Origin: Escherichia coli | Lineage (GTDB): Bacteria; Pseudomonadota; Gammaproteobacteria; Enterobacterales; Enterobacteriaceae | Assembly (NCBI RefSeq): GCF_003790525.1 | Contig: NZ_CP033635.1 | DNA: 64,000 nt | Reading direction: 5' to 3' (one strand) | In this document: positions 21,721 through 25,626 of the stretch, piece by piece | Numbering within the stretch: position 1 is the first letter of the stretch | Layout: every line of letters begins with the position of its first letter | Notes under the pieces: generated by a model | Database searches by the model: none | The model's input: only the letters and a program-made list of their open reading frames with translations | Told to the model about the DNA's origin: nothing | Translations under genes and position numbers: made by a program

Positions 21721-24700
21721 TCAGCTAATCGTGATGCCTGCAGTGGCTTTCTTCATCACAACAACCAGCAAATCGCTGATACTTGCTGAGGGATACCAGC
21801 CATTTACCCACCATGCTGATACCGAAAACTCCAGTGTCATTACGCCACTGCCTGCAGGCATATCAATAACACCCGTGTATATCAGCGTATTATCCAGAGC
21901 CGTTCGGTTATAAATTTCAGCCCCGTTTTTCTTCACTATCAGGCGGCATGACGAATAAGGCTCCTTATCCTTCCGCGGATGTCTGGCCCCCCTGAAAGCC
22001 ACCGCTGGAATAACAATTTGCCGGTCAAACGGCTGATCGTCATAAACCCTGACGGTAATGGTCCCTGATGGCCACGTCTCCGGTGCACGGGAGTCACGGG
22101 GGAAAGCCTTACCCACTGTTTTAACGAGATCGCCTTCAATCTGGTTTGCAGACAGTTTTCCCAGAACCCGACAGTTCTCGTTAATCGTGACGTTGTTGAG
22201 CGAGCCCGAATTCGCATTCACGTTACCACTGATATCGACATTTTTCGCCGTCAGACGCCCGTCCGGTGTCAGGGAAAATGCCGGGGGATTGCCGGATGAG
22301 GTGATACTCACCGCAAACAGTCGCTTCATGAAAACATCATTCATGAACAGCTGATCACCCTGAGCCACAAACAAAGGTGTTGTATTGCCATTTTCCGGGT
22401 TAATCATCGCAATACGATCTGCCTGCATCAGGATCTGACTCTGAATTCCGTCAGACGTATTTTCGATTCCGGCACCAATACCTGCAATATAGAGACGTCC
22501 ATCCCGTGTCTGCTGCAGCTTCACAGCCCACATGCTGTTCAGGTTCCGGCGCGTGTCCTCCTGAACTTTCTGTATCTGCTCAATGCTGGCATTCCAGGAT
22601 CCCAGTTTTTTATCCGTGCTCTGTTTGATCTGACTTCCCTTATCATCAACATACTGTCTGATCTGCGCTATCTGTCGGCTGTTCTCCTCCGTGCTCCTGC
22701 TTACTGTCTGCCGGATTTCGCTTCCCATCCTGTCAACTTTTCTGTCAACTTCCGCAATGGCCATTGACTGTTCACCGCTCTTTTTCGCCACAACAGTACT
22801 TATTTGCGCACTTTTATCATCAACATACTGCCTGACCTGCGCTATCTGTCGGCTGTTCTCCTCCGTGCTCCTGCTCACTGTCTGCCGGATTTCACTGCTC
22901 ACGCTGTCAACTTTCCTGTCGACTTTCGCAATGGCCAGCGACTGTTCACCGCTCTTTTTCGCCACCAGTTCCGTTATGCTGTTTTCAGACGCCGTGATTT
23001 TTTTCGTCACCTCTGCGATATCACGCTCCGCACGCTGCCTCACATCTTTCTCCAGCTGCGTCATTTCGCGGTTAATCTCATTCTCCAGTTGCTCAACTTC
23101 AGTGCGCCGTGCAGAGGCATCAATGCGTTCATTGATCTCCCGTCCCAGATGCGTTTTATTTATCGCCCCCCTGAAAAAATTAAGGTAAGCGGCAGGATCA
23201 TTACTCGGTTGACCGACTGCCTCCACGAATGCCGATTTACCGACAGTGTTAACACTGCGGATATAAAAGTAATAATCATGGCCAGGTTTAATATTCTGGC
23301 CGGAGACAAGCCACTGACTTCCGGTACCAAGATAACGGGCTGTGGTTTCAACCTGCCTGATATCGGTAATCCGCTTTTCCGAAAACCAGAACTCAAACTG
23401 TACCGTCGGATCATAAACCGCAAGATGCGGCGTGGCGGTTATCTGAAAATAGCCCGGCGTCAGCTCAATCCGCGACGGCGCTGCCGGTGCGGCAATCCGG
23501 AACGATACCGACGCCGGGTCTCCCTGCTGCCCCCGGGAATTTACTGCCCGGACTGTCAGCCTGTAGTTCCCCGGCGCCAGCTGCCTGAAGCGGTATGTGG
23601 TTTCCGTCGTCCGGGCCGTGCTGACCAGCCGCTCACTGCCATCATCCGCGGCCACGGTCAGGCGAAGCAGGAAGCTCACGCCCTTCACCACCTTCGGCGT
23701 GTCCCAGCGGGCCAGTACCTGATACTCCCCGCTGTCTGCGGTGACTTCGACAGTCAGGTGCTGCACCGCTGGCGGCGTGACACCATTCACCGTGCCGCTC
23801 TGGTCGCCGTCAAAGTGTGCCCCGTTATCCACGATGGCCTCTTTTTCCGGTACATGCTGCACGGCAGTGATGGCATACGTGCCGTCGTCGTTCTCACGGA
23901 TACTCACGCAGCGGAACAGGCGCTGGCGCAGCGTCGGCAGCTTCAGCCCCCACACGCTGTACTCGGCAACGCCGTCAGGAACCCGGCTCACTTTTACCTT
24001 CACGCCGTCGGTGACGGACTGAACCTCCACGCTGACCGGATTGCCACTTCCGTCAACCAGGCTTATCAGCGTGGTACCGGAGGATGGCAGCTTGATTTCA
24101 CGGTCGAGCGTCAGCGTCCGGGTCTGGCTGTTCACCGTCAGCACACGACCACCGGTGCTGATACCGGCATAGTCATCATCACAGATTTCAATGACATCGC
24201 CCGGTACATGGCGAAGCCCTTCAGCACCCACGCTGAAATCCACGGTCTGCGTCTCCAGCAGTTCTGTTTTAATCAGCCACAGCCCGGCGCGGTGTGCCTG
24301 CCCCCGACTGGTACAACCAAAGGCATCCATCTTCGTGACATTACGACCGTAACGGGCAATGGCCTGCGTATCTTCAACAAGCTCTGTCGCCGTCTCCTGG
24401 CCGTTATCCGGGTCACTCCAGTTCACCTCAACGGCATTATGGCGGTCCTTCAGGGCGCTGAAGCTGTAGCGGAACGGCGCGCCATCATCCGGCATCACCA
24501 CATTACTGCGGTTATAGGTCCACACCTTATCCGACTGTCGGTCCTGCACGAACGTCAGCGTCTGCCCGTTCCATACCGGCATACAGCGCATCGCCGAGCA
24601 GAAATCACTGAGCACATCCCACGCCTTACGCTGCCTGGTCAGCCAGGCATTACAGGTGATGCGCGGCTCCGTGCCACCAGAGCCGTCCGGCACCGACTGG

Positions 24701-25626
24701 TCGCAGTACTGGCCGATGACATACAGCGCCCATTTGTCCACATCCGCTGCGCCAACACGTTTCCCCATGCCGTAGCGCGGGTGGGTCAGCATATCCCACA
24801 GACACCAGGCCGGGTTATCGCTGTATGCCGGTTTAAACGTTCCGTCCCAGATACCGCTGTATTGCCGCGTCTGCGGGTTATAATTCGACGGCACCTGCAG
24901 AATGCGCCCGCGAAAATGATAATTACGGCTCACCTGCTGGCTGCCGAACTGCTCCGAATCCACCTGCACACCGACCAGTGCCGTGTTCGGGTAGCACTGT
25001 TTCACATCGATGATTTCGGTGTATGACGACCAGAGCGTTTTGTTCTGCAGCTGGTCTGTGGTGCTGTCCGGCGTCATCCTGCGCATCCGGATACTGAACG
25101 GGCGCGGCGGCAGGTTACCCACCACCACCGAGGCCAGATACTGCGAGGTGGTTTTGCCCTTAATGGTGATGTCTTTTTCCGTTAACCAGCGGCCGTTACG
25201 CTGTATCTGAACCAGCAGGCGGACTTCCGACGGATTCCGGTCCCCCTTTGAGGTGGTTTCCACCAGTGCCTGCACACCGAAGGTCAGGCGCAGACGGTCG
25301 ATGTTTGCCGACGTGATGGTCCGGGTAATCGGCGTGTCGTACTTCACTTCCGTACCCAGCACCGTCTCGGAGCCGGAGGATTCAAATCCCTCCGGCGGTG
25401 TCTGCTCCTGCTCACCGGCACGGAACACCACCGTGACGCCGGAGATGTTGGTATTCCCCTCACTGTCCAGCACCGGCGTACCGTTCAGCAGCACGCTTTT
25501 TAATCCATCCACCGGTCCTTGTATCGGCCCTTCGCTGATGACATCGATCACACTCAGCAACTGCGTGGATTTCAGATTGTCCTTCGCTTCGCGCGGGGTA
25601 TGCCCCTTACTGCTGCCTTTACCCAT
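21721..25626 (-). CDS. central tail fibre / host specificity protein J
   Basis: 1301-aa; N-terminus [52 protein letters not shown] matches lambda J; contains an internal 58-aa duplication. Confidence 0.9.
22630..22980. repeat. two copies of a ~174-bp repeat inside J
   Basis: tatcatcaacatactg...ctgcgctatctgtcggctgttctcctccgtgctcctgct recurs at 22641 and 22815. Confidence 0.8.

What the first reader, a model, noticed from the sequence alone, without database searches (positions are those of the whole stretch)
22630..22980. Internal 58-aa duplication in host-specificity protein J
J is 1301 aa, longer than the lambda J length I recall (about 1130 aa), and contains two tandem copies of a ~174-bp segment encoding KKSGEQS(L/M)AIA(K/E)VDRKVD...[20 protein letters not shown](V/I)RQYVDDK. 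This is a coiled-coil insertion within the central fibre that could change its geometry.
Basis: seen in the sequence. Interest (0 to 1): 0.35.

Follow-up and report, generated by a model that had tools for sequence, protein, structure and literature searches.

The report
Duplicated coiled-coil unit lengthens J fibre
The tail-tip protein J of this lambda-like E. coli prophage has a real in-frame duplication of a 58-residue helical unit in the neck of its central fibre; close relatives carry one, two or three copies, so they form a natural series for testing what neck length does.

Summary
The minus-strand ORF 21721-25626 encodes a 1301-aa lambda J homologue. It holds two head-to-tail 174-bp (58-aa) units at 22792-22965 and 22618-22791, with 47 of 58 residues identical.

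The units lie in the alpha-helical neck, lambda's "AHS", between the FNIII domains and the beta-prism fibre. This neck is about 227 aa here and about 53 aa in lambda. The duplication supplies only 58 of the 169 extra residues.

A divergent one-unit long neck is common, in 713 of 5426 complete E. coli genomes. The two-unit form is rare: 21 records, about 13 strains, and no sequenced phage isolate. Near-identical J genes carry exactly one unit (LH50-c) or three (AR_0085).

The neck has a 29-residue sequence repeat and a hydrophobic period of 3.62 residues. A 58-aa unit is therefore 16 helical turns and leaves the coiled-coil register intact. Each unit should add about 8.6 nm.

What the extra length does is inferred. 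It may give more reach, or a longer version of the receptor-triggered neck rearrangement. The F7-pyocin fold-switch motif is not enriched, and AlphaFold2 predicted only helix.

Verdict: a new variant of a known kind, of moderate interest.

The parts
21721..25626 (-). Gene for the tip attachment / host-specificity protein J (1301 aa plus stop).
   Evidence: ORF list and translation. Pfam matches: FNIII-A_GpJ, Phage-tail_3, Ig_J, Ig_J_second, Phage_Tail_Tip and Ig_GpJ_C, all far above their cut-offs. Residues 1-838 are 92% identical to lambda J, PDB 8iyk.
23203..25626 (-). J residues 1-808: hub domains and FNIII/Ig domains, collinear with lambda J.
   Evidence: phmmer alignment to 8iyk_J, residues 1-838 to 1-838. 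Pfam domains end at residue 818.
22522..23202 (-). Neck, J residues 809-1035. It is the equivalent of lambda's alpha-helical segment (AHS, lambda 809-861), here about 227 aa of predicted continuous helix.
   Evidence: Alignments with lambda and the other neck classes. AlphaFold2 predicts helix for J 811-1032 in the monomer, and about 826-1026 in the linker-joined trimer with pLDDT 70-84. The hydrophobic period is 3.625 residues, P<0.002 against shuffles. The AHS definition is from PMC11101478.
22600..23112 (-). About 171 residues (aa 839-1009) with no counterpart in lambda J: the long-neck insertion.
   Evidence: phmmer and MAFFT alignments place lambda 838 opposite residue 838 and lambda 842-844 opposite residues 1012-1014.
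23026..23091 (-). Two adjacent 11-residue units: [11 protein letters not shown] (aa 846-856) and [11 protein letters not shown] (aa 857-867). The divergent long-neck class has one such unit and AR_0085 has three.
   Evidence: Alignment A1 and the DNA comparison showing the flanking direct repeats CA(A/G)CTGGAGAA. Coordinates.
22792..22965 (-). 58-aa unit 1 (aa 888-945, [24 protein letters not shown]...SAQISTV). This is the unit that is absent from the LH50-c allele and duplicated again in AR_0085.
22618..22791 (-). 58-aa unit 2 (aa 946-1003, [24 protein letters not shown]...GSQIKQS). It is the orthologue of the only unit in LH50-c and of unit 3 in AR_0085.
22531..22617 (-). Degenerate further 29-residue period (aa 1004-1032, [29 protein letters not shown]). 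It corresponds to the lower AHS helix of lambda (841-861), which turns into beta-strands on receptor binding.
   Evidence: The 29-residue register table and offset self-similarity. Alignment to lambda 838-861. PMC11101478.
22201..22584 (-). Central straight fibre (beta-prism), Pfam Phage_Tail_Tip, aa 1015-1142.
   Evidence: Pfam PF09327, E 2e-28. Alignment to lambda gpJ fragments 8xcj and 8jvm. AlphaFold2 predicts strands from about residue 1036.
21724..22116 (-). C-terminal receptor-binding domain, aa 1171-1301.
   Evidence: Pfam PF12421, E 1e-35. The aligned C-terminal region (window aa 1012-1301 against lambda 841-1132) is 52% identical to lambda. The closest solved chain is 9wca 'A8 gpJ'. 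The receptor was not determined here.

Best explanation
Shown. The 174-bp repeat is a genuine in-frame tandem duplication of a 58-residue unit. It lies inside the alpha-helical neck of the J central tail fibre, the stretch between the FNIII domains and the beta-prism fibre that lambda workers call the AHS. The neck belongs to a long-neck module with a 29-residue sequence repeat and a hydrophobic period of about 3.62 residues (29 residues per 8 turns), with a core made mostly of Val and Ile. One unit is two such periods, which is 16.0 helical turns. Gaining or losing a unit therefore leaves the core register unchanged. Nearly identical J genes carry exactly one, two or three units, cut at the unit boundaries.

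Inferred. The copy number changes by unequal homologous recombination or slippage between the repeats. By analogy with lambda, the neck is a parallel trimeric coiled coil. Each unit would add about 8.6 nm. The whole neck would be about 33 nm against about 8 nm in lambda, placing the beta-prism fibre and receptor-binding domain about 25 nm further from the tail tip. The most likely consequence is greater reach of the receptor-binding tip through O-antigen or capsule. A second consequence is a longer lever or stroke in the receptor-triggered neck rearrangement that opens the tail tip.
For: Repeat and reading frame.
Position inside the AHS: lambda aligns to both sides of the insert, and the AHS is defined as lambda residues 809-861 in PMC11101478.
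Helix: AlphaFold2 monomer and linker-joined trimer.
Periodicity:
- Self-similarity peaks at offsets 58, 29, 87 and 116.
- Offset 29 remains the top peak after unit 2 is deleted.
- The hydrophobic Fourier peak is at 3.62-3.625, P<0.002 against shuffles. It is also present in the divergent one-unit necks P0122 and P0009.
- Lambda and Stx-class necks peak near 3.48.
- 30 of the 64 core positions are Val or Ile.
Copy-number series:
- LH50-c J is 1243 aa and 98% identical. It lacks exactly unit 1, and its single unit differs from unit 2 by 1 nt.
- The window and 21 complete-genome records have two units.
- AR_0085 has three, and its units 1 and 2 are identical over 174 nt. P0001, from another genome, also has three.
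Purifying selection: 7 synonymous against 6 replacement differences in the 51-codon core, and an intact ORF.
Relevance of reach: lambda's fibre holds the tube about 17 nm from the surface (PMC12617516), and O-polysaccharide blocks J from reaching porins in Gifsy-1 (PMC12312913).
Against: No experiment or solved structure covers the units. The PDB sequence search matches only the lower neck and the fibre. The AlphaFold2 models have low to moderate confidence (mean pLDDT 52 and 58), and the joined-trimer packing is uninformative. The monomer model breaks the helix at KKSGEQS at the start of unit 2, so a hinge rather than a rigid rod is possible. The last 7 codons of the two units differ at 15 of 21 nt. 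The origin may therefore be misaligned recombination between two diverged alleles rather than a simple duplication. It cannot be told whether one unit or two is ancestral. No data here link neck length to host surface or to infectivity.
Confidence: 0.7

Rival explanations
1. The long neck is a metastable fold-switching spring of the F7-pyocin type. On receptor binding the whole coiled coil would convert into a beta-prism that stacks on the existing beta-prism fibre. [quoted passage not shown] Each 29-residue period would become one strand, and each 58-residue unit would add a strand pair and more stored energy.
For: - The neck occupies the same position as the 163-residue switching coil of the F7 central fibre, directly upstream of beta-prism seed strands (PMC12874032; alignments).
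- Lambda's own short neck partly converts to beta-strands on LamB binding (PMC11101478).
- The F7 switch has 5-6 strands in 163 residues, about 27-33 residues per strand, close to the 29-residue period here.
- AR_0085 joins three of these units to a short C-terminus of about 140 residues after the coil, the same size as in F7. Similarity of sequence was not tested.
- A 33-nm rod has to be moved aside or compacted before the tube can reach the membrane (inference).
Against: - The defining motif SxSxxMxxLxS is not enriched: 1 full match against 0.8-1.1 expected, and none in the one-unit homologues. Ala-rich 32-residue-repeat necks of distant J-like proteins do show periodic enrichment. The test has low power.
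- AlphaFold2 gave only helix for the neck, with no beta-prism, in both runs. The alignments were shallow, and the paper reports that shallow alignments favour the coil.
- The authors state that lambda does not show the extensive switch.
Confidence: 0.2
2. The duplication is a tolerated, essentially neutral length polymorphism. Repeats in a fibrous rod recombine easily. Any change that keeps the register assembles normally, and neck length has no adaptive meaning.
For: - One, two and three units occur in near-identical J backgrounds.
- The same neck is joined to at least three different distal modules.
- The two-unit form is rare, in 21 of 5426 genomes, compared with the one-unit long-neck class in 713 of 5426.
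- Two neighbouring genes for trimeric fibres also carry tandem repeats.
Against: - The two units have persisted long enough to diverge by about 9% in the core, with a bias towards synonymous change.
- Four neck-length classes coexist in E. coli prophages, which suggests that length is a maintained variable.
- The neck is the element that transmits the receptor signal in lambda, so a four-fold length change is unlikely to have no effect.
Confidence: 0.25
3. The extra neck units are docking sites for side tail fibres, as on the coiled-coil shaft of F-type pyocins. More units would mean more or differently placed side fibres.
For: In F2 and F7 pyocins the central-fibre coiled coil is the binding platform for the side fibres. 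A side-fibre gene lies immediately downstream of J.
Against: The side fibre here has the lambda-type 'prophage tail fibre N-terminal' domain, PF08400. From my recollection of lambda, not tested here, side fibres of this type attach at the tail tip rather than on the neck. The same Stf type follows J genes of every neck length examined. No sequence similarity links the neck and Stf.
Confidence: 0.07
4. The two copies are an assembly or sequencing artefact.
For: Draft assemblies frequently break inside this repeat. Many partial database proteins start or end in the conserved core of the unit. Two database proteins (P0121, P0124) carry odd extra internal duplications that may be artefacts.
Against: The copies differ at 29 of 174 nt, so they cannot result from a collapsed or expanded identical repeat. 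The identical arrangement is found in 21 complete-genome records from about 13 strains.
Confidence: 0.02

Closest known systems
Lambda gpJ alpha-helical segment (AHS, residues 809-861), in cryo-EM structures 8xcj, 8xck, 8xcg and 8iyk.
   Same: Same protein family and same position, directly below the FNIII domains and above the beta-prism fibre. The flanking sequences are homologous: YL(N/D)FF(R/K)G...HLG(R/K)E above and NA S.(L/I)E(E/Q)..K...D....N(S/A)MWAVK below. In lambda this bundle flips and partly turns into beta-strands on LamB binding, which releases the FNIII clamp.
   Different: The neck is about 227 residues here and about 53 in lambda. About 171 residues are inserted between the upper and lower helices. 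The hydrophobic period is 3.62 here and about 3.5 in lambda. There is internal 29/58-residue repetition and variation in copy number.
One-unit long-neck J of phages PhiR49_2 and PhiR40_1 (PV340570, PV340560) and of prophages in 713 of 5426 complete E. coli genomes, for example strain 83972.
   Same: Same module order and same 3.62 period. It has a recognisable orthologue of the 58-residue unit (VAKKNEDQTLAIAQV...RQYVDKKGSEITST) and, in PhiR49_2, the same type of receptor-binding domain.
   Different: It has one 58-residue unit and one 11-residue unit, and J is 1232 aa. The whole neck region aligns at 41% protein identity, and the 58-residue unit itself differs at 28-32% of its core nucleotides. 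It is therefore a sister lineage, not the immediate parent.
Central fibre coiled-coil shaft of F-type pyocins (F7: PMC12874032; F2: bioRxiv 10.64898/2026.02.24.707460).
   Same: A J-like protein with a long trimeric coiled coil between the FNIII domains and a distal beta-prism. The length is comparable, 163-178 residues. The N-terminal 700 residues are homologous to J (PDB 25vf, E 5e-126).
   Different: The pyocin shaft has a heptad register with a stutter and the Ala-rich SxSxxMxxLxS motif. The neck here is rich in Ser, Glu, Arg and Gln, has a Val/Ile core, and shows no enrichment of the motif. The pyocin shaft carries the side fibres and ends in an adaptor for separate adhesins. The window's J ends in its own receptor-binding domain.
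Copy-number variation of intragenic repeats in other fibrous proteins, such as streptococcal M protein repeats and adenovirus fibre shaft repeats. This comparison is from my own knowledge and was not tested here.
   Same: In-frame repeats in a rod-like oligomer change in number by homologous recombination and so change the length of the rod.
   Different: The proteins, folds and organisms are unrelated. This is an analogy only.

Membership tests
Lambda-type tip attachment protein J (central tail fibre) | N-terminal hub region with FNIII-A and Phage-tail_3 domains | tested here: met
   PF24801 E 7e-40 and PF13550 E 3e-40. Residues 1-838 are 92% identical to lambda J.
Lambda-type tip attachment protein J (central tail fibre) | Two Ig/FNIII domains followed by the tail-tip fibre (beta-prism) and the C-terminal receptor-binding domain | tested here: met
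   PF24421, PF24489, PF09327 and PF12421 are all far above their cut-offs and in the lambda order.
Lambda-type tip attachment protein J (central tail fibre) | Gene order H-M-L-K-I-J followed by a side-fibre gene | tested here: met
   ORFs of 853, 109, 232, 261 and 223 aa lie upstream on the same strand. The near-identical locus in NRZ14408 is annotated tape measure, M, L, K (C40 peptidase), I and J. A gene for a protein with the Stf N-terminal domain lies downstream.
Lambda-type tip attachment protein J (central tail fibre) | Assembles as a trimer at the tail tip and binds an outer-membrane receptor | not testable with these tools
   Inferred from homology only.
Parallel trimeric alpha-helical coiled coil | Continuous helix | tested here: met
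   AlphaFold2 predicts helix for J 811-1032 in the monomer (pLDDT about 55, with one break at 946-952). In the joined trimer it predicts unbroken helix for about 826-1026 with pLDDT 70-84.
Parallel trimeric alpha-helical coiled coil | Regular hydrophobic core periodicity between 3.5 and 3.67 residues | tested here: met
   Fourier peak at 3.625, power 3.3 against a shuffle maximum of 0.77 +/- 0.22. The same peak appears in one-unit homologues.
Parallel trimeric alpha-helical coiled coil | Three parallel chains with knobs-into-holes packing | not testable with these tools
   No multimer prediction was available. The joined-trimer model matched only SMC-like antiparallel coils at E above 0.09. 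A parallel trimer is inferred from the lambda AHS structure and from the Val/Ile-rich core.
F7-pyocin-type fold-switching coiled coil | Coiled coil placed immediately before non-switching beta-prism seed strands of a J-like central fibre | tested here: met
   The neck ends at [22 protein letters not shown], the first strands of the fibre.
F7-pyocin-type fold-switching coiled coil | SxSxxMxxLxS motif once per prospective strand | tested here: not met
   One full match against 0.8-1.1 expected, and 11-14 four-of-five matches against 9-12 expected. Positive controls P0254 and P0225 were enriched, with 32-residue spacing. The residue classes are my own coding of the paper's description, and the test has low power.
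F7-pyocin-type fold-switching coiled coil | An alternative beta-prism conformation is predicted by AlphaFold sampling | tested here: inconclusive
   Two AlphaFold2 runs gave helix only. They used 18-row and 7-row alignments, a monomer or an artificial single-chain trimer, and neither CF-random nor AlphaFold3.
F7-pyocin-type fold-switching coiled coil | Coil-to-prism transition observed on target binding | not testable with these tools
   Needs cryo-EM or cryo-ET.
Copy-number-polymorphic intragenic tandem repeat | Head-to-tail in-frame copies | tested here: met
   Period 174 nt (58 codons) with no indels.
Copy-number-polymorphic intragenic tandem repeat | Close relatives differ by whole units at the same boundaries | tested here: met
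   LH50-c has 1 unit, the window, NRZ14408 and 20 other records have 2, and AR_0085 and P0001 have 3.

The most novel reading that the evidence does not exclude
The long neck of these E. coli J proteins is a modular, spring-loaded fold switch. Each 29-residue period would be one future beta-strand, and each 58-residue unit one strand pair. Unit number would then set both the reach of the fibre and the stroke or energy of a coil-to-prism contraction that pulls the tail tip to the outer membrane. This would extend the mechanism just described for F-type pyocins to lambda-like phages, with a different sequence code: Ser/Thr-rich with a Val/Ile core and a 29/8 period, in place of the Ala-rich heptad motif.
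Probability: 0.15. Interest if true: 0.7.

Novelty: new variant of a known kind. Interest (0 to 1): 0.38.

Why it matters
J is the textbook host-specificity protein. Its neck has recently been shown to be the element that rearranges when the receptor is bound. In F-type pyocins the equivalent coiled coil is proposed to be the energy store for membrane puncture.

E. coli prophages hold a series of neck lengths: about 55, 83, 156, 225 and 294 residues. Within one near-identical lineage there are exactly one, two or three 58-residue units, each a whole number of helical turns. This is a ready-made allelic series for asking what neck length does: reach through O-antigen or capsule, trigger mechanics, or nothing.

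There is also a practical side. Lambda-derived delivery particles are being engineered by swapping J C-termini (PMC11338833). Neck modules that add about 8.6 nm each while keeping the register would be a simple way to tune fibre length.

For annotation, draft assemblies break in this repeat, so copy number can be read only from complete genomes.

Tried and rejected
1. Linker-joined single-chain "trimer". Three copies of residues 805-1110 were joined by 30-residue Gly-Ser linkers, with a matching concatenated alignment. The neck was helical at higher confidence than in the monomer. The fibre part was disordered. Foldseek against the PDB returned only SMC-like antiparallel coils at E above 0.09. 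The model therefore says nothing about packing or about a beta-prism.

2. F7 motif scan. No enrichment was found. The test has low power and uses my own coding of the residue classes.

3. PDB sequence search with the neck alone. No solved relative covers the units. A weak resemblance to a phage short tail fibre coiled coil (9cuy, E 0.38) was rejected as chance.

4. P0121, which has an extra 29-residue duplication in the neck, was first taken as another length variant. I then set it aside, because the same protein has a second 29-residue duplication in the fibre, and P0124 has a 50-residue one. These look like assembly artefacts.

5. An apparent co-variation of the 11-residue and 58-residue unit numbers (1+1, 2+2, 3+3) was rejected. 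LH50-c has two 11-residue units with one 58-residue unit.

6. I tested whether the J neck is related to the coiled coil of the neighbouring YadA-anchor protein or to Stf. There is no similarity.

7. A literature search for a description of the PhiR49-type phages found nothing relevant. I found no paper in the held library that describes long-neck J variants.

8. The homologous-protein search returned almost only fragments of at most 392 aa. It was useful for variants but not for a census of full-length proteins.
Full report
**1. The observation**

Tandem Repeats Finder reports one array at window 22640-22965: period 174 bp, 1.9 copies, 91% matches, no indels, score 561. The repeat finder gives the same pair of copies, 174 nt apart.

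The array lies inside the minus-strand ORF 21721..25626, which encodes 1301 aa. It is in frame.
- Unit 1 is residues 888-945 (window 22792-22965).
- Unit 2 is residues 946-1003 (window 22618-22791).
- The units share 47 of 58 residues and differ at 29 of 174 nt.
- In the first 51 codons, 13 codons differ: 7 synonymous and 6 replacement, 14 nt in all.
- In the last 7 codons, 15 of 21 nt differ.

Its coordinates are a few bases off the true boundaries.

**2. What the protein is**

Pfam finds the full set of J domains in the lambda order:

| Domain | Residues |
|---|---|
| FNIII-A_GpJ | 86-207 |
| Phage-tail_3 | 330-496 |
| Ig_J | 610-714 |
| Ig_J_second | 716-818 |
| Phage_Tail_Tip | 1015-1142 |
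| Ig_GpJ_C | 1171-1301 |

Residues 1-838 align without gaps to lambda J residues 1-838 (PDB 8iyk) and are 92% identical. Residues 1013-1300 align to lambda 842-1131, and the C-terminal region is 52% identical. No Pfam J domain covers residues 819-1014.

The upstream ORFs have the sizes of lambda H, M, L, K and I. A near-identical locus in E. coli NRZ14408 is annotated in that way. The window therefore holds a lambda-like prophage tail module, and the gene is J.

**3. Where the repeat sits**

About 171 residues (839-1009) have no counterpart in lambda J. In lambda, residues 809-861 form the "AHS". This is a three-helix bundle under the FNIII domains and above the beta-prism fibre.

On LamB binding, the AHS flips by about 180 degrees. 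Its lower helix (841-861) becomes beta-strands on top of the fibre, and this releases the FNIII clamp (PMC11101478). The insertion lies between the upper and lower helices of this bundle. The neck is thus about 227 residues here, against about 53 in lambda. The duplication contributes 58 of the 169 extra residues.

**4. Structure of the neck**

AlphaFold2 on residues 805-1110 with an 18-row alignment gave a low-confidence model, mean pLDDT 52.
- Helix runs from residue 811 to 1032.
- There is one break at 946-952 (VAKKSGE, the start of unit 2).
- Strands begin at about residue 1036.

A single-chain construct of three copies joined by Gly-Ser linkers gave unbroken helix for about 826-1026 in all three copies, at pLDDT 70-84. 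The packing in that model is not informative, as section 8 explains.

Self-comparison of the neck peaks at offsets 58, 29, 87 and 116. With unit 2 removed, offset 29 is still the strongest, about 7 SD above shuffles. The neck is therefore built on an older 29-residue repeat with consensus V.....E.S..IA.V...VD.....I.Q..

The hydrophobic Fourier spectrum peaks at 3.625 residues, with power 3.3 against a shuffle maximum of 0.77 +/- 0.22, and has no power at 3.5.
- The same 3.62 peak is present with unit 2 deleted.
- It is also present in two divergent one-unit necks.
- The lambda and Stx-class necks peak near 3.48.
- Of the 64 in-phase positions, 30 are Val or Ile. From established coiled-coil knowledge, such a core suits a trimer.

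At 3.625 residues per turn, 29 residues are 8.0 turns, 58 are 16.0 and 11 are 3.03. At about 0.15 nm per residue, one unit adds about 8.6 nm. The whole neck would be about 33 nm, against about 8 nm in lambda. [quoted passage not shown]

**5. Relatives and copy number**

Neck length is measured here from the start of the neck segment at residue 805 (the conserved G(Q/R)xS) to N(S/A)MWAVK. It falls into classes:

| Class | Neck length (residues) |
|---|---|
| Lambda | 55 |
| Stx-phage class | 83 |
| One-unit long neck (phages PhiR49_2, PhiR40_1 and many prophages) | 156 |
| The window and NRZ14408 | 225 (156 + 58 + 11) |
| AR_0085 | 294 (225 + 58 + 11) |

Census in 5426 complete E. coli genomes:
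- The divergent one-unit class is in 713 genomes.
- The two-unit form, at 97-99.7% identity, is in 21 records. Judging by record lengths, these are about 13 distinct strains, many of them from poultry.
- AR_0085 has three units. Its units 1 and 2 are identical over all 174 nt, so the third copy is recent. It also has a third 11-residue unit, flanked by the direct repeat CA(A/G)CTGGAGAA.
- A second three-unit sequence, P0001, comes from another genome.
- Strain LH50-c carries a two-unit J in one prophage. In a second prophage it carries a J of 1243 aa that is 98% identical to the window's J. That J lacks exactly unit 1, and its single unit differs from unit 2 by 1 nt.

There is therefore a one/two/three-unit series in nearly the same gene.

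No record among 50,697 phage genomes holds the two-unit neck.

The same neck is joined to at least three distal modules:
- the window type;
- an A8-like type in NRZ14408;
- a short type in AR_0085, whose ending (...GWRLSRNGSLEINSG...RLGRL) I recall, untested, as resembling T1-like central fibres.

Many partial proteins from draft assemblies start or end inside the conserved core of the unit. Short-read contigs break there, so copy number cannot be read from them.

**6. Origin**

In the 153-nt core, units 1 and 2 differ by 9%. They differ from the PhiR49_2 unit by 28-32%. The second unit therefore arose after the split from that lineage and well before the present two-unit carriers diverged, which differ by 0-2 nt per unit.

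The strongly divergent last 7 codons fit misaligned recombination between diverged alleles at least as well as a simple duplication. Whether LH50-c lost a unit or the others gained one cannot be decided. Unequal homologous recombination or slippage between repeats is inferred, not shown.

**7. Function**

The shown part stops at anatomy. The likeliest mechanism is as follows. The neck is a parallel trimeric coiled coil, as in lambda. Unit number sets its length without disturbing register. This places the fibre and receptor-binding domain about 25 nm further out than in lambda.

Two consequences are plausible.
[quoted passage not shown] The carriers here are wild isolates.
- **Trigger mechanics.** The neck is the part that rearranges on receptor binding.

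A bolder reading comes from F-type pyocins. [quoted passage not shown] An independent F2 structure describes the shaft as metastable and as the platform for the side fibres. Position and length match.

The defining motif SxSxxMxxLxS, however, is not enriched here. It is enriched, with 32-residue spacing, in the Ala-rich necks of distant J-like proteins. AlphaFold2 gave no beta-prism. I give this reading about 0.15-0.2.

Other readings:
- A neutral polymorphism remains possible (0.25).
- A side-fibre docking role is unlikely, because the Stf has the lambda-type N-terminal domain.
- An assembly artefact is excluded by the 29 differences between the copies and by the 21 complete genomes.

**8. 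Limits**

- No multimer prediction was available.
- The joined-trimer model matched only SMC-like coils, at E above 0.09.
- No solved structure covers the units.
- The receptor was not identified. The nearest solved domain is the engineered A8 gpJ (9wca), an OmpC binder according to PMC11338833, but the window's domain is only moderately similar to it.
- I found no paper in the held library that describes long-neck J variants or this repeat. That does not prove that none exists.

**9. Verdict**

It is a new variant of a known kind: a register-preserving, copy-number-polymorphic extension of the J neck. Interest is moderate. Its main value is the natural one/two/three-unit series, located in the element now thought to trigger and perhaps power infection by non-contractile tails.

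Noticed in passing
window 17808-18364, inside ORF 17386..19002 (-): A 99-bp tandem repeat of 5.6 copies at 98% identity (33-aa units, ...[23 protein letters not shown]...). It lies in a 538-aa protein with a YadA-like membrane anchor, that is, a trimeric autotransporter adhesin carried at the end of the prophage. From memory it resembles the prophage-borne Eib immunoglobulin-binding proteins; this was not tested.
   Followed up: partly
window 20267-20414 and 20705-21197, inside ORF 19992..21662 (-): 45-bp repeats (3.3 and 11.3 copies) encode collagen-like Gly-X-Y triple-helix repeats (Pfam Collagen, E 4e-41) in the side tail fibre, which has the lambda-type N-terminal domain. Three consecutive genes for trimeric fibres (J, stf, adhesin) thus each carry in-frame tandem repeats.
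   Followed up: partly
L005 (E. coli LH50-c, NZ_CP100500 2037594-2041325) and the same genome at 2379406-2380401: One genome carries both a one-unit and a two-unit version of nearly the same J gene, in two prophages. This is a ready substrate for recombination between alleles.
   Followed up: partly
L002 (E. coli AR_0085, NZ_CP029741), locus 1133-5771: The three-unit J ends in a short, different C-terminus after [10 protein letters not shown]. From memory this ending resembles the adaptor C-terminus of T1-like central fibres; this was not tested. Two small ORFs of 74 and 220 aa follow, which may encode a separate receptor-binding protein. An IS66 element lies just downstream.
   Followed up: no
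NZ_CP158426 (NRZ14408) 4582771-4587999, hit H162: A second J gene in this strain is interrupted by an IS1414 (IS256-like) insertion.
   Followed up: no
Database proteins P0121 and P0124: Each has extra internal duplications. P0121 has two separate 29-aa duplications and P0124 has a 50-aa one. They look like assembly artefacts rather than real alleles. Many other database entries are contig-end fragments that break inside the 58-aa unit.
   Followed up: partly
window 22804..25026 (+): A 740-aa ORF runs antisense through most of J. It has no support as a gene and is presumably a by-product of J's codon usage.
   Followed up: no
window 13235-15883 and 16869..17324: The prophage end abuts aspS (class II aspartyl-tRNA synthetase domains) and an isochorismatase-family gene. 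The last phage-side ORF (151 aa) has a sigma-70 region 4 / HTH domain. The attachment site was not mapped.
   Followed up: no
Distant J-like proteins P0254 and P0225: Their necks consist of Ala-rich 32-residue repeats (…ADSAL.QRIDTV.A..G.NAAAI.AEQTARA…). They carry the F7-type motif at 32-residue spacing, so repeat-built necks are widespread in J-like central fibres.
   Followed up: partly
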